A stretch of 64,000 nucleotides of DNA. It comes from Nitrosopumilus sp. Lineage in GTDB: Archaea > Thermoproteota > Nitrososphaeria > Nitrososphaerales > Nitrosopumilaceae. Shown here one piece after another: positions 3,290 through 42,395 of this stretch (positions within the stretch are counted from its first letter, which is position 1; every line of letters starts with the position of its first letter). The translations under genes and the position numbers were made by a program. The notes below the pieces were generated by a model that did not search any database, was not told the origin of the DNA, and saw nothing but the letters and a program-made list of their open reading frames with translations. The stretch is taken from the NCBI GenBank assembly GCA_965218785.1, contig OZ244650.1, forward strand, positions 1,376,001 to 1,440,000, in the 5' to 3' direction.

Positions 3290-3897
3290 GTTCCAAAATA
3301 GTATTCAATCATTTTTAGATTCTCATCAATCAAACAGACAAAGAATTACTACTTTGTTAAGTACTGTAAGAGGAATTACACTTCCTTCTGGAGCAGGAAT
3401 ACAATTTGATTTCTCATCAAACAATATCTTGGACTTGCCAGGATTATTTAGAAGATTAGATCAATGGGCTGGAGAGAATAATACAAAAATCGTTATTGCA
3501 GTAGATGAAGCTCAAGAATTTAGAAAAAGCAAACACATGGATATGACAAACATATTTGCATCAGTATATGATAACTGTAGAAATATTATTTTAATTTTGA
3601 CAGGTTCAGAAATTGGAGTTTTTTATGATTTCTTGGCTCTTGAAGATGCTAATTCAACATTATTTGGAAGAGCAAAAAAAGAAATCAAAATTAATCCATT
3701 ATCCCATCAGCAAGGTATTGAATTTCTTAAAGTAGGATTAGAACAACAGAAATTAAAAAAATTTGATGAATCTGTATTATCTCATGCTGTTGATGAACTC
3801 GGCGGTATTGTTGGATGGTTAAATGAATTTGGACTACGATGTCTGGAACATAAAAAAAATGGAAAAGAATTCATTAAGGATATTAAAAAAATAGGGT
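3290..3897 (+). pseudogene. Fragment of an archaeal ATPase (AAA+/ATPase_2 family), truncated at both ends
   Basis: Walker B IAVDEAQ, LTGSE, GR and GG motifs are present; Walker A is absent. The C-terminus runs into the repeat at 3898-3942. The start coordinate is approximate. Confidence 0.7.
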
Positions 3898-3942
3898 TCT
3901 GGTGCAAAACAGTGATCTGATCATCAAAATACACCAGAACCG
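3898..3942 (-). repeat. Solo copy of the 45-bp palindromic terminal repeat
   Basis: Reverse complement CGGTTCTGGTGTATTTTGATGATCAGATCACTGTTTTGCACCAGA matches 38680-38724 at 37/45 positions. Confidence 0.85.
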
Positions 3943-15115: not shown

Positions 15116-16027
15116 ATGACCCACGACGATATCGAAATTATCGGTAAGAACGTCAAAGACATGTACGGAACATTCATGGGTAAGGTCGTAGGAACGATAA
15201 CTGACATCGACGGTAGTATTCAATCCGTTGGCATTGACTCCGGTTCTCAGGGATTACAGCAGATCCAGTATGAGCAACTAGTAGTTCAAGGCGATGTTGT
15301 CATTTTCATTCCAAAATGGAGACTCGACTCCCAAAGACTCATTCGTGAAAAACAACTGACTCTGCGCCGCCTAAAGGCCCTGATGGACATTGTTTCTGAA
15401 AATGATGAAATGAAGGATGATGCACAAATCATTCATGAAAAATACAAGTCAAAACTTGTAACATTATCTGAAACACAAAGTGAAATCAAAGCCAAACTCG
15501 AGGCGAGGTTAACAGAGTTGGATGACGAAATAAAGTCTGCAAAGATGTTATTATTTGATGCAAAAGTACAAACCAAGAGCAATGAGATCTCCAGTACCAC
15601 ATTTGATACTGTGAAATCATGCACAACCACGGTGATTGAGCGAATCACTCATGAAACCGCAGAGATTGCAAATGTGAAGAGCAGAATTGCAGACCTTGAT
15701 TTGGAAATGCAGGATATAACAGCTCTGCCACAACCCCATAACATCCAAGAATCAGCCGTTTCATATCTGGAGACACCCGAATCGCAGCAGCAACAACAAC
15801 AACAACAGCAGCAGCAGGCGGTTCAGTCAATACTTCCAGAAGCCCCTACAGCACCAATAGACACACCTTTGGCACAGGTCCAAGTCCAGACTACACCCAC
15901 GTCTGAACTTCCAACCGAATCCAAAGTATCAGCCGCGTTCCCAGAACCACCACAACAACAGGTGAAATCAGAGACTTTAGATGAAGACAGTGATGACGAC
16001 TGGCTTGCTAGAATGGAAGCACAATAA
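15116..16027 (+). CDS. cdvA: Cell division protein CdvA
   Basis: N-terminal PRC-barrel-like IGKNVKDMYG, a coiled coil, then a low-complexity P/Q-rich tail. Confidence 0.85.
   Translation: MTHDDIEIIGKNVKDMYGTFMGKVVGTITDIDGSIQSVGIDSGSQGLQQIQYEQLVVQGDVVIFIPKWRLDSQRLIREKQLTLRRLKALMDIVSENDEMKDDAQIIHEKYKSKLVTLSETQSEIKAKLEARLTELDDEIKSAKMLLFDAKVQTKSNEISSTTFDTVKSCTTTVIERITHETAEIANVKSRIADLDLEMQDITALPQPHNIQESAVSYLETPESQQQQQQQQQQQAVQSILPEAPTAPIDTPLAQVQVQTTPTSELPTESKVSAAFPEPPQQQVKSETLDEDSDDDWLARMEAQ
15785..15817 (+). repeat. CAG/CAA poly-glutamine tract (Q11) in cdvA
   Basis: cagcagcaacaacaacaacaacagcagcagcag. Confidence 0.9.
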
Positions 16028-16211
16028 TTTTTTTATTTTATTTTTTTGAGATTTGAATCTGCGTTCATGCATTTTTTGATATGATCCTAAATTGAAATTA
16101 AATCCGGAGAAGATCACTATTTTACCAACTGTTATTTGGCAGAAGCAGACTCCCAACATTACATCATAATCTAATTGCCCAACACTAATGTAGTTCACAC
16201 CAGTACATTTT

Positions 16212-18110
16212 TTGATGTCTGAGACTTTTAACATCGGCCTTGGAAACAATGATACTGCCCTAAGAAAGAGCGCCGATTCTGATTTCGTGTCTTTTTGGGG
16301 GAGACAGGCAGAAAACCTTGTCTGGTTTTCCACTTGGAAAAAAACCTTGGACTGGCAGCCCCCGTTTGCCAAATGGTTTGTCGGAGGCACGATTAACGCC
16401 TCATATAACGCCCTAGACGTACATCAGAGTACAAAATCAGACAAACCGGCCATACTGTGGGAGGGCGAAGACGGCCAGTCCCGAATTCTGACATATCATG
16501 ACATGTTCATCCAAGTCAAAAAATTTGCCAACGTCTTAAAATCCCTCGGCGTTCAAAAAGGGGATCGTGTTACGATATATCTGCCGATGGTCCCCGAATT
16601 GCCTATTGCAATGCTGGCATGTGCCAGAATTGGGGCAACACACACCGTGGTATTTTCAGGATTTAGTGCCAGATCAATTCATGACCGTATTGATGATTCA
16701 AAATCCAGAGTCGTGATAACTGCCGATGGCGGATACCGAAGGGGAAAGATCATCAAATTAAAGCAGGTAGTCGATGATGCAATAGCCGGTCTTGATTTTG
16801 TAGAGCACGTGGTAGTTCTCAACCGGGCAAACAATGAAATCCAGATGACTTCAAAGGACAAGCTTTGGAGTGATCTGATAAATGATGCCTCTGATTCATG
16901 TGATGCAGAAAAACTGGACAGCAATCATCCTCTCTACATATTATACACCTCTGGAACAACCGGAAAGCCAAAGGGTGTCTTGCATGGTACGGGCGGATAT
17001 CTTACACACCTGTATTCCACATTCAAGTGGGCATTTGACATCAAGGATTCTGATGTCTTTTTCTGTACTGCAGATATCGGCTGGGTTACCGGTCACAGTT
17101 ACGTCGTTTATGCCCCGCTGCTTCACGGTGCAACTGAAATAATGTATGAAGGCGCCCCTGATCATCCCGACACATCAAGAATGTGGGAGATCCTGCAGAA
17201 ATACCGGGCTACAATTTTTTACACCACGCCGACTGCCATTCGAATGTTTATGAAATTCGGTGACGAGGCACCCAACTCGTTTGATCTTTCGTCATTGCGG
17301 CTGCTTGGAACAGTAGGCGAGCCAATCAACCCCGAGGTTTGGAGGTGGTATTTCAAAACTGTCGGAAAGGAAAAATGTCCGATTATTGATACGTGGTGGC
17401 AGACAGAGACTGGAGGCATGCTGATCTCAGCACTGCCGGGTCTAGAGACCATCCCACTCAAGCCAGGTTCTGGAACACTGCCAATTCCGGGGGTGGATAT
17501 TTCAGTAGTTGATGAATCCGGGGCCGACGTATCCCCAAATACAAAGGGATACCTCGTAATTAGGAATCCGTGGCCTGGAATGCTGTTGGGCCTGTGGGGC
17601 GATGATGAGAAATACAGGGCAGTCTACTGGTCAAAATATGAGAATTGCTACTATCCAGGCGACTATGCGCTAAGGGATGATGACGGGTATCTTTGGCTGC
17701 TTGGACGTGCAGACGACGTGCTCAAGGTGGCAGGACATAGAATAGGTACTGCCGAACTTGAGAGCTGCATGGTATCACACAACGACGTGGCAGAATCCGC
17801 AGTGTGCGGGATTCCTGATGAAGTAAAGGGCGAGGCAATCATTGCATTTGTTGTTTTAAAACAGGGCACAGTACTGGCAGATCCTGCAGCCCTGGAGCAG
17901 GAACTTGCCGCCAAGATACGTGCCGACATCGGTGCAATCGCATCTCCGCGACGAATCTATTTTGTCTCAAAACTTCCAAAGACCCGCAGTGGAAAGATAA
18001 TGCGCAGACTGCTCAAGGCAGTTGCCAACAATGAAAAGATCGGCGATCTCAGCACGCTAGAAGACGGGGAGGCAGTAACTGAAATTCAGAACGCCTTTAA
18101 CAAACTTTAA
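16212..18110 (+). CDS. acs: Acetyl-CoA synthetase (AMP-forming)
   Basis: YTSGTTGKPKG, DTWWQTETGG, PKTRSGKIMRR motifs. Confidence 0.95.
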   Translation: MMSETFNIGLGNNDTALRKSADSDFVSFWGRQAENLVWFSTWKKTLDWQPPFAKWFVGGTINASYNALDVHQSTKSDKPAILWEGEDGQSRILTYHDMFIQVKKFANVLKSLGVQKGDRVTIYLPMVPELPIAMLACARIGATHTVVFSGFSARSIHDRIDDSKSRVVITADGGYRRGKIIKLKQVVDDAIAGLDFVEHVVVLNRANNEIQMTSKDKLWSDLINDASDSCDAEKLDSNHPLYILYTSGTTGKPKGVLHGTGGYLTHLYSTFKWAFDIKDSDVFFCTADIGWVTGHSYVVYAPLLHGATEIMYEGAPDHPDTSRMWEILQKYRATIFYTTPTAIRMFMKFGDEAPNSFDLSSLRLLGTVGEPINPEVWRWYFKTVGKEKCPIIDTWWQTETGGMLISALPGLETIPLKPGSGTLPIPGVDISVVDESGADVSPNTKGYLVIRNPWPGMLLGLWGDDEKYRAVYWSKYENCYYPGDYALRDDDGYLWLLGRADDVLKVAGHRIGTAELESCMVSHNDVAESAVCGIPDEVKGEAIIAFVVLKQGTVLADPAALEQELAAKIRADIGAIASPRRIYFVSKLPKTRSGKIMRRLLKAVANNEKIGDLSTLEDGEAVTEIQNAFNKL

Positions 18111-18137
18111 AAATCAGTCAGGTACAAACTGCGATGA

Positions 18138-18671
18138 TTACTGGCCTTTTAGTTCCCTCAAATCAACGTTGGATATCATCTCAAACATTTTCTTGAGCCC
18201 GTCATGCTCTGATCTTGAACTCCTGTCTAGCTGTTCATACCTCTCTTCCCTGATTTGATCCAGTTTGTGGTTTGCCTCTCTGAAAAATTCCTCATACTCT
18301 TTTATTTTTTCACCAGTCATCTGCGTTAGATCAAAAATTATCGTGTTGCTGCCAAGCAGGTTTTTATTTTCATCATAAATGCTCGTTGCCTGAAGCAGTC
18401 CCCGAAAAGTACTCCCGTCCTGCCTCTTGAATGTGATGTCCCTATCAGTCACCTTTCCAGTCTCAAACCACGTCTTTAGGGAGTTGTTCATATCCTCCCA
18501 TGACTCTTTGGGCACGTGCTCGAAGATTGGCCTTCCTAGAATCTCTGATTTCGCATATCCAAGATTTGCAGCATACGTGGAGTTGCAGTCAAGAATCACC
18601 CCGATTGAGTTTATCCTCCTCCACATTACAGGTGCGTCTTTTAGCGTTTTTCTTGCTTCAGTTTGTGGCAT
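18138..18671 (-). CDS. Stand-alone PAS domain protein
   Basis: G.ILDCN...LGY.KSEILGRP...KRQDGS PAS/PAC pattern plus a helical tail. Confidence 0.8.
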   Translation of the reverse strand: MPQTEARKTLKDAPVMWRRINSIGVILDCNSTYAANLGYAKSEILGRPIFEHVPKESWEDMNNSLKTWFETGKVTDRDITFKRQDGSTFRGLLQATSIYDENKNLLGSNTIIFDLTQMTGEKIKEYEEFFREANHKLDQIREERYEQLDRSSRSEHDGLKKMFEMISNVDLRELKGQ

Positions 18672-25244: not shown

Positions 25245-25497
25245 CCAGATGTCTGTTGACATCAAACAGGCAAATTCCCAAAAAGAACACGTAGACAAGT
25301 GACGATCAAAAGATGTTGTATATTGGAATTACCATCCAAAAAGTGGTTCATTCGTTCCCCATATGAAAAAAAATAGAGAGATATTGGAAAAAGATGCATA
25401 CACAGGTAAAATTAGAAGAAATTCAATCATCGACCAACAGACTTATAAGTAATGATTTAGAAAATTTTAAATATTATAATAAAGGTTTGATGAAAAA

Positions 25498-37069: not shown

Positions 37070-37207
37070 TGCTGTTTCCTGACTTGCTGTGCCATTGTAC
37101 TCATTTTAGAAGGAAATTGAGGAAAAGTTGAGCTTATGGTTAAAGTCAGATATATCAAAGCCATCAAAGATGAATCTGGTTTTTCGGTATTAAGGCATGC
37201 GTAGGAG

Positions 37208-37462
37208 TTATTCCTCGGAATAGTCGCAGTTTGGGCATTGTTTGTCGTGGATTTTAGAGCCACACTCCAGGCATATTCCCTCTCCGACGTCGCGTGCAAT
37301 CATCTGGCTTCGCTTTGCCACATACACCTTGATTCCAAAATACATGAGAGTCACGATGAGAACCGCATAAATGGGCGCCATAAACGGAATCAGCCCAATC
37401 ATGAAAAGCAAAAGCCCTACAATCAAAAGGATGTCCCGTCTCTCAAATTTCAATGAAATCAA
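37208..37462 (-). CDS. Small membrane protein with a C-terminal zinc ribbon
   Basis: Two TM segments plus CLECG...CPNC. Confidence 0.7.
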   Translation of the reverse strand: MISLKFERRDILLIVGLLLFMIGLIPFMAPIYAVLIVTLMYFGIKVYVAKRSQMIARDVGEGICLECGSKIHDKQCPNCDYSEE

Positions 37463-37591
37463 TCATCATGGAATTTATAAAAACATGCCGGAGCTCAGAG
37501 CCAATTAGTTTATTTCACATATCATTACTCTAACTCTTCTTCATTGCTCGGCAGTGATGTTATGCGGTAATTTGATAATAAGATATGGTTG

Positions 37592-37668
37592 TGGTGGGAT
37601 CGGCGTGATTCGAACGCGCGACCTCTGCGTCCCAAACGCAGAATCATACCAAGCTAGACCACGATCCC
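37592..37668 (-). tRNA. tRNA-Pro (anticodon TGG), with encoded CCA
   Basis: GGGATCG...CTGCG-TTTGGGA-CGCAG...GTTCGAATC...CGATCCC-A-CCA on the minus strand. Confidence 0.93.
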
Positions 37669-37739
37669 AGTAAATCATAAAAATCGCCCAATTTAAGCTT
37701 CACAGATAATCATTTTAAAGGCACACAAAGGATCAGTGT

Positions 37740-38636
37740 ATGCAGATCGAGGATTATCTCAAGGCAGGAAAAATTGCCGCCGAAGTAAGGGAAATTGTCA
37801 GGACGAAGGATTGGATTGGAAAGACAGTATATGAGATTTGCGAGTATGTCGAAGGGGAGATTGTAAAGAGGGGGGCAAGATGTGCCTTCCCGGTAAATAC
37901 CAGCATCAACGAGGTTGCAGCACATTATACAGCAGAGCCAGATGATCCGATTACAATCAAGGATACGGACCTGGTAAAGATTGATCTTGGCGCACAGGTT
38001 AACGGCTACATTGCAGATACTGCGGTAACTGTATGTTATGATGTACAGTCTGAGGGACTAGTCAGGGCAGCCGAGGAGGCACTGGCAAATGCAATGTCGA
38101 TGATCAAGGCAGGAGTAAAGGCAAGTGATGTCGGACGGACCATTGAGACTACGATTAAACGGATGGGATTCATACCGATTGCAAATCTTAGCGGCCACTC
38201 GCTGGGACAGTACACGATACATGCAGGAAAGTCCATTCCAAACATTTGGTCAATCGGGGGTTTCTCGCTTTCAGAGAGTTCAGCATATGCATGCGAGCCG
38301 TTTGTGACAACCGGAAAGGGCGGCGGCTTTGTCAGGAACGGACAGATAAAGAATATCTTCGCCATAAATTCACGAAAAAAGACAAAGGATGCAGAAGCAG
38401 ACAAGCTGCTTGATTTTATCTGGGAGAATTTCAACATGCTGCCATTTGCATTGAGATGGATTACAAAAGAGTGGGAGGAAAAAAAGGCAAGGGAGTTAAT
38501 GGCGATTTTGATAAAGAAAAAGGCAGTACAGGCATATCCGATTCTTTTGGAGGTAAATGAACAGAGGGTGGCACAGGCAGAACACACATTCATTCCAAAT
38601 GAAGGCGGCGTGACAGTAACAACCAGGGCACCGTGA
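37740..38636 (+). CDS. map: Methionine aminopeptidase type II
   Basis: AFPVN..INEVAAHYT, KIDLGAQVNGYIADTA, NLSGH, EPF, AQAEHT motifs. Confidence 0.95.
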   Translation: MQIEDYLKAGKIAAEVREIVRTKDWIGKTVYEICEYVEGEIVKRGARCAFPVNTSINEVAAHYTAEPDDPITIKDTDLVKIDLGAQVNGYIADTAVTVCYDVQSEGLVRAAEEALANAMSMIKAGVKASDVGRTIETTIKRMGFIPIANLSGHSLGQYTIHAGKSIPNIWSIGGFSLSESSAYACEPFVTTGKGGGFVRNGQIKNIFAINSRKKTKDAEADKLLDFIWENFNMLPFALRWITKEWEEKKARELMAILIKKKAVQAYPILLEVNEQRVAQAEHTFIPNEGGVTVTTRAP

Positions 38637-38679
38637 TTACATAATTTGGATTAAAATTTTCCACAAGATATGATTTGTA

Positions 38680-38724
38680 CGGTTCTGGTGCATTTTGGTA
38701 ATCAGATCACTAGAATCCACCAGA
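38680..38724 (+). repeat. Left terminal inverted repeat
   Basis: CGGTTCTGGTGCATTTTGGTAATCAGATCACTAGAATCCACCAGA. Confidence 0.9.
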
Positions 38725-38955
38725 CCCAAAATATTATCTGTAATTTCAATGATCATAAATACATCTATGAATAAAAGAGATTCAAATCATGATGTTGTCA
38801 GTCAGGATTGAGATATGATTGCCAGTGATATTTCTTGATTTTGTTTCTTATTCTGTAGTATTTTTTTTGTGTATAATACTTCATGTATTTCTCCAATAAG
38901 TAATCACATTCCTTTTACAAAATGGTATTTGTAACTGATTCTGATTTATCTTTTT

Positions 38956-39306
38956 CTATGGAATTCCGGCTTCAATGTTATCTAGTAATGCTCTTGCAAG
39001 TACCAGATCTTCTGTATTCACATTTTTCCCCACAGTGTATCTAGCTCTAATGCTTAATGTTGAAAGTAAATGGTAATCGGCATATACTGCATTTAGATGT
39101 GTTTCCACCAACTGATTTCTTACATGATGATTTATTTTTGAAGGATATTCTATCTGATTTCTAATAAAAAATTCATCTACCAAATGTAATGCAGTATAGA
39201 ATAATGTGGTAATTTCCCAATCCTTGTATTTTTGATTTTGTGATTGTAGCAAATTATTTGCATCCTTGTTGTGACTAATTTGATCAATTTGAAAATTTGT
39301 TGACAT
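38956..39306 (-). CDS. HEPN domain protein (putative toxin)
   Basis: HN...DWEITTLFYTALH...NH..R...L..LSIRARY helical HEPN pattern. Confidence 0.75.
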   Translation of the reverse strand: MSTNFQIDQISHNKDANNLLQSQNQKYKDWEITTLFYTALHLVDEFFIRNQIEYPSKINHHVRNQLVETHLNAVYADYHLLSTLSIRARYTVGKNVNTEDLVLARALLDNIEAGIP

Positions 39307-39314
39307 TTTTCAGA

Positions 39315-39914
39315 TTAGAGAATAGTTTTTGTCTCCTTTATTGTGTGAGGCTGGACTTCAGACTCGTGTAGAATCCATGGCTCAATATAATGATCTGGGA
39401 ATCCAGTTTCTAATTTTCGAATAGATTCATCAATTTTCCTGAGCGCATCTGTTTTATCATTAGAAGAATGGATTACAATTATTCTTATTTCTGAATCCTG
39501 TTTTGAATATGCTATTTTTGTGACATATTCCAAATGGTTAAGAGAATTTACTATTCTTTCTTCCTCCATTTGATCTAGTTCTGATGATTTTTTTGTTCCA
39601 GATGAAACAAAGCCGTTCTCATTTAATTTAGTATCAATCATAAAAGAAATCATTTTCTGGAATATGGGCATATTTTCTTCTAGTCTTTTATCTACAACTA
39701 ATTTGATTGTATGTTCGTCATCATACCCTGTACCTCTGATCCTTGCTGCAAAAATTTTCTGGGACGGTCCAGATCTGGAATATTCCAATGTTGGTAAGGA
39801 TTCTGTTGATATATCAACTGAGTTGGATGGTCTACGATATGCGTTTTTAGATGTATATGAAACAGACTTTTTTCCATCTATTTTTTTGATTTCGCTTCCT
39901 TCATTTTCACTCAT
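39315..39914 (-). CDS. Hypothetical protein with a C-terminal degenerate minimal-nucleotidyltransferase-like fold (putative antitoxin)
   Basis: C-terminal V.KIAY...DSEIRIIVI...L.KI......L...FPD..IEP....E mirrors MNT topology without GS/DxD. SD AGAGGTGA upstream; overlaps the upstream gene. Confidence 0.5.
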   Translation of the reverse strand: MSENEGSEIKKIDGKKSVSYTSKNAYRRPSNSVDISTESLPTLEYSRSGPSQKIFAARIRGTGYDDEHTIKLVVDKRLEENMPIFQKMISFMIDTKLNENGFVSSGTKKSSELDQMEEERIVNSLNHLEYVTKIAYSKQDSEIRIIVIHSSNDKTDALRKIDESIRKLETGFPDHYIEPWILHESEVQPHTIKETKTIL

Positions 39915-40683
39915 TCAAATCACCTCTATAGTATACATAAGTTGCAACTGTAAATGCAATCAATACTTTTATTACATTTATTCTTAACTCCATAGGCAGT
40001 TCATCCATTTCTTTAAATTCCTCTTTATGTTCGTTATAAAATTGACTTTTTGTCAAAAGTAAATAGTAATCCCCCGGATTGTCTATTGCTTTTATTATTG
40101 ATGTCTCCCCTCCTCTAATTGAATGATATATTGCCATAGCTAATCTGTAAATCATCGTAGTTGAATCCATAATTTTTTCATTAACAGTTTCTTTTGCAGC
40201 TTGAAAAATCATGTCTTTACTATTTACTTCATCCAAGATGTTGATTGAATGCAACAACTTTTCTGTATTTTTCTTTGCTGACTGTAAATTGAATTCTGCT
40301 TTGTATTTGTCACCGACTATTAATTTTGCAAGACATTCTCTTGAATTTTTTATCCAATTATCAAATGATTCAAACGAATTTAATTTTTTTAAAATATTCA
40401 TTGCTACTATCATATCATATTCCCAATGTCCAAATTGACCTCCATTTGAAGTATGAATAAATATTTCATCTGTAAAGCTTGTGGATTTTATTAATTCATA
40501 TAATTTAGGATTCACTGCAACTTCTAAATTTGTATCCATCTTGGATTCATCTTTTTTTATTTTGATATGTAAGAATGGAAAATTAGGACTAGTTGCAGTT
40601 TTGAGGAAAGTTGCTGTTTGGGATTCTTTTGGATTAGAACCAAAATTAAAGGAAAATCCTTCATGTATGTTATCTTTTAACAT
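39907..40683 (-). CDS. Hypothetical protein, first gene of the cargo operon
   Basis: 258-aa AT-rich ORF with a TTTATA upstream; no family recognised. Confidence 0.7.
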   Translation of the reverse strand: MLKDNIHEGFSFNFGSNPKESQTATFLKTATSPNFPFLHIKIKKDESKMDTNLEVAVNPKLYELIKSTSFTDEIFIHTSNGGQFGHWEYDMIVAMNILKKLNSFESFDNWIKNSRECLAKLIVGDKYKAEFNLQSAKKNTEKLLHSINILDEVNSKDMIFQAAKETVNEKIMDSTTMIYRLAMAIYHSIRGGETSIIKAIDNPGDYYLLLTKSQFYNEHKEEFKEMDELPMELRINVIKVLIAFTVATYVYYRGDLNE

Positions 40684-40929
40684 ATTTCATATACTCCAAT
40701 ACCTCATATAAAAATAAAATAGAATTCATGTAATCGATTGGATTCCCGCATGGATTTCTTGTCTGTAGATATAGTATATACCATATTGCAATTCATGGCT
40801 AACCTAATTTTTTCATCATCAGTCTGTCTCCTCTTAACCGTTGTCAAATTCTGAAATATGCCTTTCATCATTTACATGAGGTTGTTACTACCTAATTCAT
40901 ATTCATATCTTTTCACCTCGATTTTCGCT

Positions 40930-40974
40930 TCTGGTGGATTCTGGTGATCTGATCACCAAAACGCACCAGAACAG
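40930..40974 (-). repeat. Right terminal inverted repeat
   Basis: Reverse complement CTGTTCTGGTGCGTTTTGGTGATCAGATCACCAGAATCCACCAGA. Confidence 0.9.
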
Positions 40975-41079
40975 TTTGTACCATTCAGGTGATGATGATG
41001 AGACACAAGACTTCGGAGGGTATGGCAGCAGGGCAGGTATCAGCTGATCAAGGATCACATGCAGCAATCCAAAGGGGTG

Positions 41080-41262
41080 TCACCCCATGGTTTCACCAAA
41101 TATTTTCTCGATGCGTGTTGTACCATCACATGATGTGCATTTTGATGATTCTGCAAACAGGACATCGCCGTCAACGAATCTTCTTTTTCTCTGCATTTGA
41201 CATTTTTGGCATATCTCAACTGTATAGTCGATGATGATCTCCTTGTTCTTCCTCCCAAACAT
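41080..41262 (-). CDS. Small zinc-ribbon protein
   Basis: CQKC...CTSC; coupled to the DUF1512 gene. Confidence 0.75.
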   Translation of the reverse strand: MFGRKNKEIIIDYTVEICQKCQMQRKRRFVDGDVLFAESSKCTSCDGTTRIEKIFGETMG

Positions 41263-42395
41263 TACTGTGGCACCCCGGCAGTGTTACCAACGCCGATTAT
41301 CAGTACAGACTGGCCTTCTGTGGTGTTCTCCCGAATCATTTCGTAAACTTGGGAGCGTACCTCGTCGGCCTGATCGGCGATTTCTTTTTTCATCAAGGTG
41401 ATTGCCTCCTTGACTGATTGTTTAATCACGATGGAAAAAACAGGAATCCTGTTGTGTGTTGCAACTGCCTCAATTTGGAACCTGTCAGTTCCAATTCCGC
41501 CAATTGCCGCACCAAAACCCTGTGCAACAGATGCAGAGTCCTCGCCCTCCATTTTCAATGCCGCATCAATCATAATTACCGCATCAATCTTGTTATCAGA
41601 GACGATTGTTTCTAGTGCATCAGCGGGCCGTCCCACCGTAGAAGAGGGTCCCTCTGCCTTTAAAAGAAACAGTTTCCTATTCTCAAATTCAGTCATTGCA
41701 AGGACCGTTTGAAATGCAACGGTCTGTTTTTCACTGTTTAACATCATTCTTCCCACGATCATCGGGCCGATTCCATCACCTACGGGCTGTCCGGCCTTGA
41801 ATGCCGGAATCGCATATCTCATCGCCTCGGCATGTTCTAGTATAAAGGGAAGAAGCATCTGAAGCGGCAGAATCAGCGGATAGTTGTTTTGTTTCTTGGC
41901 AGTCAGATACATGTGGTTGACTATTTTGTAAATAATTTGCAAAGAGGAGGCAATCTCAAGCAGGGTCTGAACCTTGGCCAATTCCAGGTCGTTGATTCCC
42001 GGAAAAATGGATTTTATGTGTTCCCGGGTGTGGTCTTCCCTGGATCTGACAGTATGTTTTACCTTCTCGACGATTCCGCTGGGATCCATATCAACAGGCA
42101 TGATTGTAAAGTAATCCAAAAACCTGTCAATCTTTTTTGCAAAGTCATCCTTGTGGCTCAGATTTTTTTCGGCGTAATTGATCAATTCGGTTTTGGATTC
42201 CTTTCTAAAACCATCAAGTTTCTTTATTGCCTTTTTGATTTCACCAGATGTGACATACAGCTGAATTCTCTGCCCATAAAAAATAAAGAGCACTATTGGA
42301 AGAATCCAGATCAACACCATCAGGGGATTGGTGTCATCGCCCATCCCGAACAGCTGTTCAAAATCAAAATTTATAAAATCCAATAGTGACAACAC
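41262..42395 (-). CDS. DUF1512 family protein
   Basis: PVDMDP.G, GDGIGP, KAEGP, IDAALKMEGE, IGVGNT motifs. Confidence 0.85.
   Translation of the reverse strand: MLSLLDFINFDFEQLFGMGDDTNPLMVLIWILPIVLFIFYGQRIQLYVTSGEIKKAIKKLDGFRKESKTELINYAEKNLSHKDDFAKKIDRFLDYFTIMPVDMDPSGIVEKVKHTVRSREDHTREHIKSIFPGINDLELAKVQTLLEIASSLQIIYKIVNHMYLTAKKQNNYPLILPLQMLLPFILEHAEAMRYAIPAFKAGQPVGDGIGPMIVGRMMLNSEKQTVAFQTVLAMTEFENRKLFLLKAEGPSSTVGRPADALETIVSDNKIDAVIMIDAALKMEGEDSASVAQGFGAAIGGIGTDRFQIEAVATHNRIPVFSIVIKQSVKEAITLMKKEIADQADEVRSQVYEMIRENTTEGQSVLIIGVGNTAGVPQ

What the first reader, a model, noticed from the sequence alone, without database searches (positions are those of the whole stretch)
38674..40980. 2.3-kb cargo element with 45-bp terminal inverted repeats, a TTTGTA target duplication and no recognisable transposase
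Seen: the left end CGGTTCTGGTGCATTTTGGTAATCAGATCACTAGAATCCACCAGA (38680-38724) and the right end (40930-40974, reverse complement) match at 41/45 positions. Each end abuts the same hexamer TTTGTA (38674-38679 and 40975-40980; 7 bp if the adjacent C is counted). The interior is visibly more AT-rich than the flanks and holds three co-transcribed genes, none recognisably a transposase or integrase. Established: TIRs plus a TSD are the footprint of DDE-transposase or casposase insertion. Inference: a non-autonomous, pack-type element mobilised in trans and carrying toxin/defence cargo in a thaumarchaeon. I do not recognise these ends as any named IS family.
Basis: partly seen in the sequence, partly recalled or inferred. 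Interest (0 to 1): 0.85.

Follow-up and report, generated by a model that had tools for sequence, protein, structure and literature searches.

The report
Transposase-less cargo transposon with IS6-like ends
A 2.3-kb block of three unknown genes in a marine ammonia-oxidising archaeon is a real mobile cassette whose ends resemble those of the IS6/IS26 insertion-sequence family, but it has no transposase of its own and must be moved by an enzyme supplied from elsewhere.

Summary
In detail: the ends match at 41/45, TTTGTA abuts both, and the interior is 30% GC against 43-44% in the flanks.

Each end is a 47-bp near-palindrome made of two 23-bp half-sites. The unit occurs at 39 loci in this genome, mostly in nearby pairs. 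With symmetric boundaries (window 38681-40973) the target duplication is 8 bp (ATTTGTAC/GTTTGTAC). Four of 16 testable unit pairs here score at least 7/8 (control 0.00065). One element in G002 and one in G158 are 8/8.

Mobility is supported three ways:
- 23 of 24 congeners have map and DUF1512 adjacent.
- A contig in a public run shows an element-free allele with a single target copy.
- Another Nitrosopumilus species carries the whole element at 93% identity at a different locus.

No matching transposase was found here. In G158 and G144 the same half-site terminates 5.4-6.3-kb elements that encode a 540-aa zinc-ribbon DDE protein. That protein passes Pfam DDE_Tnp_IS240 and is distantly IS6-like.

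Best reading: a non-autonomous compound cassette of a new IS6-like family. The cargo function is unknown, so "toxin/defence" is unsupported for this copy.

The parts
38673..38680 (.). left copy of the 8-bp target duplication (ATTTGTAC)
   Evidence: 7/8 identical to the right copy
38681..38727 (+). left end unit: a 47-bp near-palindrome with outer half-site 38681-38703, a central base, and inner half-site 38705-38727
   Evidence: homology with the G151 copy starts exactly at 38681; contigs of other loci branch off at 38681 (table 7)
38956..39306 (-). cargo ORF, 116 aa, all-helical, no family; HEPN-like only as a weak language-model lead
   Evidence: intact in the G151 copy, dN/dS 0.67
39315..39914 (-). 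cargo ORF, 199 aa; the C-terminal ~135 residues form a domain shared with 38 representative proteins; no named family
   Evidence: intact in G151 apart from a 24-nt indel, dN/dS 0.74
39907..40683 (-). cargo ORF, 258 aa, helical, with a long, largely hydrophobic C-terminal helix (a possible membrane anchor, my reading only); narrow orphan family (10 clusters)
   Evidence: dN/dS 0.23 against the G151 copy
40684..40926 (-). upstream non-coding region of the cargo operon (a 55-aa ORF at 40704-40871 is unverified)
   Evidence: 92.5% identical to the G151 copy
40927..40973 (-). right end unit: the same 47-bp near-palindrome, inverted relative to the left unit
   Evidence: homology with the G151 copy ends at 40972; contigs branch off at 40972
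40974..40981 (.). right copy of the 8-bp target duplication (GTTTGTAC)
37740..38636 (+). left flanking host gene, methionine aminopeptidase (Peptidase_M24)
   Evidence: adjacent to the DUF1512 block in 23 of 24 congeners
41080..42395 (-). right flanking host genes: 60-aa zinc-ribbon ORF (41080-41262) and DUF1512 (41262-42395)
3894..3942 (-). another, solitary copy of the unit (variant type) in the same window, without a flanking duplication

Best explanation
Window 38681-40973 is a 2,293-bp non-autonomous compound transposon (a 'mobile insertion cassette'). Three cargo genes of unknown function are bracketed by two copies of a 47-bp near-palindromic unit. Each unit consists of two 23-bp transposase-binding half-sites facing each other. 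That makes it equivalent to the left and right terminal repeats of an insertion sequence with everything between them removed.

A DDE transposase supplied in trans would bind these half-sites and use the two outermost termini. It would insert the whole segment at a staggered 8-bp cut, leaving the ATTTGTAC/GTTTGTAC duplication between map and DUF1512.

The most likely enzyme is the ~540-aa zinc-ribbon DDE protein family (distantly IS6-like). Related Nitrosopumilus species encode it inside 5.4-6.3-kb elements that end in the same half-site. This genome does not encode it, so the copy is currently stranded unless such an element arrives.

Shown: the repeats, the duplications, the insertion polymorphism, the inter-species copy, and the co-occurrence of the half-site with that protein.

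Inferred: that this protein is the mobiliser, and that the chemistry is IS6-like (replicative, via cointegrates). IS6-like chemistry would also explain the many units and pairs that lack duplications.
For: 1. The unit family has 39 loci in the genome, mostly in nearby pairs.
2. With symmetric boundaries, 4 of 16 testable pairs in this genome have 8-mer flank matches of 8/8 or 7/8 with different sequences, and the other 12 score 3/8 or less. The control probability of at least 7/8 is 0.00065.
3. The same rule gives 8/8 for a 5.4-kb element in G158. For a 3.5-kb element with diverged units in G002 it gives 7/7 by script and 8/8 by my reading of the flanks printed.
4. Unit orientation does not matter: the duplication-bearing pairs are ++ or +-, as expected if either half-site can serve as a terminus.
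5. In 23 of 24 same-genus genomes map and the DUF1512 block lie 76-773 bp apart in aligned blocks, against about 2.46 kb here.
6. One contig in public run X3 (depth 68.5) joins 38669 to 41021 with 39 intervening letters. These carry a single CTTGTAG where this genome has TTTGTAC twice.
7. G151 holds the whole element at 93% identity over exactly 38681-40972, at another locus. Its housekeeping flanks are 72-77% identical.
8. The terminal half-site, with 0 mismatches to the G158 terminus, lies at the same place after the 536-540-aa gene in two species, G158 and G144 (88% protein identity).
9. That protein passes Pfam DDE_Tnp_IS240 (36.6 bits, cut-off 27). Its best NCBIfam hit is transpos_IS6. 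It keeps invariant D136, D244, E300 and K307 across 13 relatives.
10. Review passages in PMC7986276 state that the IS6 family makes 8-bp target repeats, has MITE derivatives and pseudo-compound cargo transposons, and often lacks flanking repeats. PMC10581047 prints an IS6-family inverted repeat, TGGTTCTGTTGCAAAGT, and 11 of its first 12 nt after the T equal our terminus.
11. All four genomes with full-length copies of the protein (G158, G144, G153, G154) are unit-bearing. Of the 17 unit-bearing genomes, 10 have some match, against 7 of 133 others. Relatives are not independent.
Against: - No cognate transposase was found in this genome or in G151. The link to the 540-aa protein therefore rests on two elements in other species.
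- Only one of those two transposase-bearing elements has a duplication (G158 8/8; G144 3/8).
- The G151 copy of this very element has none (3/8).
- None of 21 single units has its own duplication (maximum 5/8). That is odd if each unit is a mini-transposon.
- Twelve of 16 pairs here and 15 of 16 in relatives' loci lack duplications.
- The 61-62% homologues in G153 and G154 show no recognisable half-site within 5 mismatches.
- The protein scores about 40 bits against a 125-bit IS6 equivalog cut-off. It is more than twice the size of the 220-250-aa transposases that the review gives for the family.
- The empty-site allele comes from a diverged strain (flanks roughly 93-97% identical). The tool classes the joint as 'replaced', not a clean excision.
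- Three of the six duplications have one mismatch. A 7-bp duplication plus one extra base at the right end is not excluded.
Confidence: 0.68

Rival explanations
1. It is a genuine non-autonomous transposon, but a transposase other than the 540-aa IS6-like family moves it. Candidates are an unrecognised enzyme, or this genome's own broken IS6/IS1-like gene when that was intact.
For: No 540-aa homologue is present in this genome or in G151, although both hold many units at high identity. One of the two transposase-bearing elements lacks a duplication. The genome has a split IS6/IS1-like gene at C1:1739893-1740821.
Against: The resident gene has no GGTTCTGG-type ends. It aligns to the 540-aa family only marginally. 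The other transposases examined have unrelated ends and different duplications: the rve-type IS has TIR ..AAAAGTAGTTCACCCCC and a flanking duplication of at least 11 bp, and the DDE_Tnp_4 IS has TIR TAGAGAATATGCGTAATCC flanked by TA. The IS110-type genes lie 26-52 kb from the nearest unit, apart from one small fragment 12 bp from a unit.
Confidence: 0.17
2. The units are recombination sites for a site-specific (tyrosine, Xer or integron-like) recombinase, and the cargo is a gene cassette exchanged between such sites rather than transposed.
For: The units are imperfect palindromes. An array of 5-6 same-orientation units interleaved with single cargo genes at C1:816-821 kb looks cassette-like. 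Most pairs lack duplications. The genome has two tyrosine recombinase genes.
Against: Six elements carry 8-bp flank duplications of six different sequences, which site-specific recombination does not produce. No recombinase gene was seen in the ORFs I listed for the 816-kb array or the other unit pairs. The ends and the associated protein are DDE/IS6-like.
Confidence: 0.07
3. The units are REP-like host palindromes (or IS200/IS605-type hairpin ends) spread by a Y1 HUH enzyme, and the flanking repeats are coincidental.
For: The units are hairpin-forming, dispersed and intergenic.
Against: No Y1_Tnp and no OrfB_IS605 match was found in the genome. The duplications are far beyond chance. The whole element, cargo included, is shared at 93% with another species.
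Confidence: 0.02
4. It is a degraded casposon or the remnant of another self-synthesising element.
For: Casposons are known in this genus (search listing) and have TIRs and duplications.
Against: No Cas1 match was found in the genome. The element is 2.3 kb and has no polymerase. The duplication is 8 bp, not the roughly 14-15 bp that I recall for casposons.
Confidence: 0.01

Closest known systems
IS6/IS26 family insertion sequences and their pseudo-compound transposons
   Same: An 8-bp target duplication, short GG-starting terminal repeats (11/12 identity to a printed IS431mec-like repeat), a DDE_Tnp_IS240-type catalytic domain with D, D, E and K in the candidate enzyme, cargo bracketed by two end-bearing modules, arrays of modules, and frequent absence of flanking repeats.
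   Different: The bracketing modules are 47-bp transposase-less palindromes rather than full ~800-bp IS copies, and they occur in either orientation. The candidate transposase is ~540 aa, with zinc-ribbon-like extensions at both ends and an insertion within the catalytic region. It lies far below the curated IS6 cut-off. Its own elements are 5.4-6.3 kb, with 149-bp compound ends and restriction-modification-like cargo.
[quoted passage not shown]
   Same: The unit consists of both terminal repeats with no coding capacity, is multicopy, and depends on a transposase in trans.
   Different: At 47 bp it has no internal sequence at all. Solitary copies show no target duplication (0 of 21). Duplications appear only around pairs that enclose genes.
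Mobile insertion cassettes (MICs, e.g. MIC231 of Bacillus cereus; recalled, only search listings seen)
   Same: Passenger genes lie between IS-type ends, with a target duplication and no transposase, and are mobilised in trans.
   Different: The domain (Archaea) and the IS family differ. The ends are palindromic double sites rather than single terminal repeats.
pdif modules moved by XerCD in Acinetobacter plasmids (recalled)
   Same: Small cargo modules, often toxin-antitoxin or resistance genes, are bracketed by short inverted protein-binding sites and lack their own recombinase.
   Different: Those move by site-specific recombination without target duplication. Here, variable 8-bp duplications point to transposition.

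Membership tests
IS6/IS26 family (as an element derived from it) | 8-bp direct target repeats | tested here: met
   ATTTGTAC/GTTTGTAC here (7/8). Other family members: 8/8 (C1:37123-38356), 7/8 (C1:15268-18200), 7/8 (C1:631120-631747), 8/8 (G158 L058), and 8/8 in G002 L063 by my reading (7/7 by script). Control probability 0.00065. A 7-bp repeat plus one extra base is not fully excluded.
IS6/IS26 family (as an element derived from it) | short, conserved terminal inverted repeats of the family type | tested here: met
   The terminus GGTTCTGGTGCA matches GGTTCTGTTGCA at 11/12. The latter is the IS431mec-like repeat printed in PMC10581047. I compared against that one printed repeat only. ISfinder is not available here.
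IS6/IS26 family (candidate transposase of autonomous relatives) | HTH + DDE (+K/R) transposase recognised by the family models | tested here: inconclusive
   Pfam DDE_Tnp_IS240 is passed (36.6 bits, cut-off 27). Invariant D136, D244, E300 and K307 are present. NCBIfam transpos_IS6 gives only 37-41 bits against a cut-off of 125, and no solved relative exists.
IS6/IS26 family | simple ~700-890-bp IS with one 220-250-aa transposase | tested here: not met
   The autonomous relatives are 5,431 bp and 6,283 bp. They carry a 536-540-aa protein plus methyltransferase and ATPase cargo.
IS6/IS26 family | replicative transposition through cointegrates | not testable with these tools
   Only indirect hints exist: many units and pairs without duplications, and a same-orientation array at C1:816-821 kb.
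Mobile insertion cassette / non-autonomous compound transposon | IS-type ends + passenger genes + target duplication + no transposase inside | tested here: met
Mobile insertion cassette / non-autonomous compound transposon | evidence of actual movement (empty site, or copies at different loci) | tested here: met
   An element-free allele in run X3. A 93% copy at another locus in G151. Adjacency of the flanking genes in 23 of 24 congeners.
MITE (for the 47-bp unit on its own) | each copy flanked by its own target duplication | tested here: not met
   0 of 21 full-length units have more than 5/8.
Casposon | Cas1-type integrase (casposase) | tested here: not met
   No PF01867 match in the genome.
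REP/RAYT or IS200/IS605-derived palindromic elements | Y1 HUH transposase (or TnpB) in the genome | tested here: not met
   No PF01797 or PF01385 match.

The most novel reading that the evidence does not exclude
The 47-bp palindromic units form a general gene-cassette shuttle in marine Nitrosopumilus. Any gene that comes to lie between two units becomes a transposable, horizontally exchangeable cassette. The driver would be a previously undescribed clade of large zinc-ribbon IS6-like transposases that themselves ride on restriction-modification-type transposons. On this reading the three-gene cargo here is a new defence or addiction module that this shuttle spreads between species.
Probability: 0.25. 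Interest if true: 0.7.

Novelty: new variant of a known kind. Interest (0 to 1): 0.5.

Why it matters
Ammonia-oxidising Thaumarchaeota are abundant in the ocean, and their mobilome is sparsely described. The main survey I could read (PMC6563490; passages and its IS section) lists only transposase-bearing IS families and larger integrated elements. It never mentions MITEs, non-autonomous transposons or compound transposons. A search of the paper library for MITE + Thaumarchaeota + insertion sequence found nothing.

This element shows that genes are packaged and moved between Nitrosopumilus species by transposase-less cassettes. Those cassettes are built from minimal IS6-like ends. In bacteria, the same logic drives IS26-mediated spread of resistance genes.

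It also defines a testable enzyme-substrate pair: a 540-aa DDE protein and a 23-bp half-site. And it flags unit pairs as markers for recently acquired accessory genes, often defence-related, in these genomes.

Tried and rejected
**Transposase candidates rejected**
- The 456-aa DDE_Tnp_4 transposase found inside a duplication-flanked G002 element looked like the missing enzyme. It is a separate 1.6-kb IS with its own ends, flanked by TA and merely nested there. A 100% identical copy elsewhere has no unit nearby.
- The rve-type IS of this genome has unrelated ends and a flanking duplication of at least 11 bp.
- IS110-type genes lie 26-52 kb from the nearest unit, apart from one small fragment 12 bp from a unit.
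- Family searches of this genome gave no hits for DDE_Tnp_1, OrfB_IS605, Cas1, IS1595 or Y1_Tnp. Transposase_mut gave only a sub-threshold hit.

**Wider searches**
- The viral-contig scan for the unit core found 0.
- The metagenome scan found one solitary unit and one partial chance hit.
- The genome-collection scan found only G151's record.

**Empty site in relatives**
- Alignment of the intergenic region in 11 congeners failed because they are only 72-82% identical.
- Larger map-DUF1512 gaps in G158 and G151 hold no units.

**Cargo**
- No Pfam, PADLOC or NCBIfam family.
- The 258-aa model (pLDDT 77) has no PDB fold match better than E 0.9.
- The 116-aa single-sequence model was too poor to search (pLDDT 51).
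- The 199-aa family profile has no PDB or Pfam relative.
- My impression that the 630-bp element carries a HicAB pair was not confirmed by Pfam.

**Read laying and tools**
- The other joints in read laying (38682/40929 on opposite strands; 38721 to 40929) have short sides and fall in the repeated unit. I treat them as assembly effects.
- Supplementary tables of PMC6563490, which list IS families and coordinates per genome, could not be seen. They might list IS6-type elements in this genus.
Full report
**1. The observation**

The sequence is as described. The repeat finder reports inverted arms at 38679-38731 and 40923-40975, 53 nt and 87% complementary. A search for the left end with up to 3 mismatches found only itself, and 100 shuffles gave none. 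TTTGTA, followed by C, abuts both ends. The interior is 29.9% GC, against 44.1% and 43.2% in the flanking 2 kb.

Three minus-strand ORFs of 258, 199 and 116 aa are packed with an 8-nt overlap and an 8-nt gap. None matches a Pfam, PADLOC or NCBIfam family over threshold. The flanks are methionine aminopeptidase on one side, and a 60-aa zinc-ribbon ORF plus DUF1512 on the other.

**2. The ends are palindromic units of a dispersed family**

Each end folds on itself (DNA fold z-scores -1.9 to -4.3). It is a 47-bp near-palindrome: two 23-bp half-sites, 18/23 alike, around a central base.

A profile built from 16 copies finds 39 loci on the chromosome at E<0.01, in both orientations. Most lie in pairs 0.3-3 kb apart. 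One further solitary copy lies in this window at 3894-3942.

**3. Target duplications**

I first saw 6-mers, then 7-mers. With symmetric element edges (GGTTCTGG ... CCAGAACC) the flanks are 8-mers. Of 16 pairs within 12 kb whose outer edges are aligned:

| Element (C1 coordinates) | Flanking 8-mers | Match |
|---|---|---|
| 37123-38356 | GCGCCTGA / GCGCCTGA | 8/8 |
| 15268-18200 | CATATCTG / CCTATCTG | 7/8 |
| 631120-631747 | GAATCTGA / AAATCTGA | 7/8 |
| 1414681-1416973 (this element) | ATTTGTAC / GTTTGTAC | 7/8 |

The other 12 pairs score 3/8 or less. Shifted-boundary controls give P(at least 7/8) = 0.00065.

The four elements carry different cargo:
- a 231-aa protein with a hydrophobic N-terminal stretch (my reading);
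- a 723-aa internally repeated protein;
- two small ORFs;
- the three genes studied here.

Unit orientation is ++ in two of them and +- in two, so either half-site can act as the outer terminus.

In loci fetched from relatives, 1 of 16 testable pairs is 8/8: G158, TCCTCATA. A G002 element with diverged units gives 7/7 under the rule applied blind, and 8/8 (AGTCCGGC) when I read the flanks printed.

Results against:
- the G151 copy of this very element scores 3/8;
- the G144 transposase-bearing element scores 3/8;
- none of 21 single units has its own duplication (maximum 5/8).

**4. It is an insertion, and it has moved**

In 23 of 24 same-genus genomes sampled, map and the DUF1512 block lie on one contig, with 76-773 bp between the aligned blocks. 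Here the distance is about 2.46 kb. The 24th genome has only one block, at a contig end. Those genomes are only 72-82% identical, and their intergenic DNA does not align with ours.

Public runs gave the closer comparison. Three runs from two studies hold the locus. All are Logan contigs. The best holder may be the source sample, so I do not count that run as independent support. In run X3 one contig (depth 68.5) joins 38669 to 41021, with 39 other letters between. The element-bearing contigs in that run have depths of 59-80.

Aligned to our two flanks, those letters hold a single CTTGTAG where this genome has TTTGTAC twice. Left-flank-like bases precede it and right-flank-like sequence follows it. 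This is an element-free allele in a strain whose flanks differ by a few percent. The tool classes the joint as 'replaced' because of that divergence. Contigs from other loci branch off exactly at 38681 and 40972, and word depth over the units is roughly 5- to 18-fold that of neighbouring bins.

Finally, G151 carries the entire element at 93% identity over exactly window 38681-40972. A tool-shown record title names G151 as a Nitrosopumilus MAG. Its copy is at a different chromosomal place, and its own map and DUF1512 genes are 72-77% identical to ours. All three ORFs are intact there, with dN/dS of 0.67, 0.74 and 0.23, from few substitutions.

**5. Looking for the enzyme**

This genome gave no match for:
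- DDE_Tnp_1, OrfB_IS605, Cas1, IS1595-type DDE or Y1_Tnp;
- Transposase_mut, except one sub-threshold hit.

What it does contain does not fit:
- **An rve-type IS.** It has unrelated ends and a flanking duplication of at least 11 bp.
- **IS110-type genes.** They lie far from units.
- **A split IS6/IS1-like relic.** It has no recognisable ends.
- **Two tyrosine recombinases**.

A 456-aa DDE_Tnp_4 transposase inside the G002 element looked promising. It proved to be an independent 1.6-kb IS nested there.

The productive lead was G158. A 5,431-bp element there has 149-bp terminal inverted repeats (94% identical). They begin with the half-site AGGTTCTGGTGCATTCTAGTGATC, and further half-sites lie about 123 bp inward. 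It has an 8/8 duplication. It encodes a cytosine methyltransferase, a HATPase_c_3 protein and a 540-aa protein.

That 540-aa protein has these properties:
- It passes Pfam DDE_Tnp_IS240 (36.6 bits, cut-off 27) and has a sub-threshold rve_3 hit.
- Its best NCBIfam hit is the IS6 model, but at about 40 bits against a cut-off of 125.
- Thirteen relatives keep D136 (WGIDET), D244, E300 and K307 invariant, with invariant cysteine pairs near both termini.
- Public sources hold about 27 related clusters of 300-660 aa, most 516-549 aa, and 24 of those 27 are pre-annotated with PF13610.

An 88%-identical copy in G144 is followed by the same terminal half-site with 0 mismatches, at the same position. 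Its 6,283-bp element starts with the other half-site variant. So the left and right ends of the G144 element correspond to the two halves of the palindromic unit seen here.

Full-length copies occur only in G158, G144, G153 and G154, and all four are unit-bearing genomes. Some match occurs in 10 of the 17 unit-bearing genomes, against 7 of 133 others. These genomes are kin, and both features track genome size, so this is weak support. Neither this genome nor G151 has a match.

**6. Comparison with what is known**

Passages of the IS6 review (PMC7986276) state that the family:
- makes 8-bp direct target repeats;
- has short conserved inverted repeats;
- includes two MITEs;
- forms pseudo-compound cargo transposons and arrays;
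- often lacks flanking repeats after intramolecular replicative events;
- has clades with zinc-finger extensions, up to 450 aa.

A passage of PMC10581047 prints an IS431mec-like inverted repeat, TGGTTCTGTTGCAAAGT. Its first 12 nt after the T match our terminus at 11/12.

The element therefore works like an IS6-type compound transposon whose flanking 'IS copies' have been reduced to 47 bp. It is not a canonical member: the size and the curated protein threshold both fail.

The thaumarchaeal mobilome survey (PMC6563490; passages and its IS section read) does not mention MITEs, non-autonomous transposons or compound transposons. Its supplementary tables were not visible. A library search for MITE + Thaumarchaeota + insertion sequence returned nothing.

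**7. Cargo**

- **258-aa protein.** It belongs to an orphan family of 10 clusters. The alignment-based model (pLDDT 77) is all-helical and ends in a long, largely hydrophobic helix. It has no PDB fold match better than E 0.9.
- **199-aa protein.** Its C-terminal domain is shared with 38 representatives, and no family or solved relative exists.
- **116-aa protein.** It has only a language-model lead towards HEPN-like clusters.

'Toxin/defence' is therefore not shown for this copy. It is plausible by association only. Elsewhere, units flank or adjoin:
- an AbiJ_NTD5+Abi_C protein;
- an SDH-type ClpP-like protease;
- a GNAT protein;
- a DprA/SLOG protein;
- an AAA ATPase;
- a HEPN + nucleotidyltransferase pair;
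- methyltransferase/ATPase blocks.

**8. Verdict**

The finding is real and mobile. It is a non-autonomous compound cassette of a new IS6-like lineage. That lineage's likely transposase is encoded only in related species.

Three things remain unexplained:
- why solitary units have no duplication;
- why the G151 copy and one transposase-bearing element lack one;
- what the cargo does.

Noticed in passing
G000 contig C2 (3,706 bp), outside the window: The small second contig of this assembly encodes a 279-aa open frame, with no start within the contig, that resembles a retrotransposon (gypsy/Ty3-like) integrase. It is probably eukaryotic contamination, not archaeal DNA.
   Followed up: partly
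L078 = G151:C2:1-8418 versus G000 C1:660423-666352: An 8.4-kb contig binned with G151 is 100% and 99.8% identical to this genome at its two ends. Its 4.9-kb middle differs: it holds a unit, a 409-aa ATPase and a 470-aa protein with TPR-like repeats (both labels are my reading of the sequences), and it replaces 2.4 kb here. This is probably a strain variant of this organism that was mis-binned. It shows cargo polymorphism next to a unit.
   Followed up: partly
window 25335-25426 (G000 C1:1401335-1401426); also C1:555512-555583: Short fragments matching the left end of the rve-type IS at C1:1724574-1725782. That IS has a split 116+192-aa transposase, a 17-bp perfect inverted repeat near its ends and a flanking duplication of at least 11 bp. 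A degraded second copy lies at C1:99156-100324.
   Followed up: partly
G000 C1:816058-821222: An array of five to six units, all in the same orientation, is interleaved with single cargo genes: an SDH-type protease, a GNAT protein, small ORFs and a DprA/SLOG-like protein. Three of the units share an extended conserved flank. It resembles the IS26-type arrays described in PMC7986276. No duplications were found.
   Followed up: partly
window 38637-38680 and 40982-41079, compared with L012-L020: Nine of the 11 congeners compared encode a small (~40-aa) CPxCG...CPxC zinc-ribbon gene between map and the DUF1512 block. It is not recognisable in the flank pieces printed for this genome, G007 or G024.
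   Followed up: no
G002 (L062, L063, L082), outside the window: A 1.6-kb IS encodes a 456-aa DDE_Tnp_4/HTH_Tnp_4 transposase with a repetitive, lysine-rich N-terminus. It is present in at least 11 copies at 90-100% identity in G002, and relatives occur in 28 of 150 genus genomes. None was found in this genome at E<=1e-5.
   Followed up: yes
G000 C1:109663-109821 and about ten other loci: DNA next to the full-length IS110-type gene matches a separate 65-130-bp repeat family scattered over the chromosome. This may mean the IS sits inside another repeat.
   Followed up: no
G000 C1:661721-662197, 110936-111257, 105771-106080, 1276308-1276531: Another dispersed repeat family of about 300-480 bp, 81-87% identical between copies. 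It was seen when comparing G151:C2 with this genome.
   Followed up: no
G000 C1:1741302-1741370: Tandem ~20-bp repeats (GGTGCTGGAGGTAGAGCCCT) lie beside the broken IS6/IS1-like gene.
   Followed up: no
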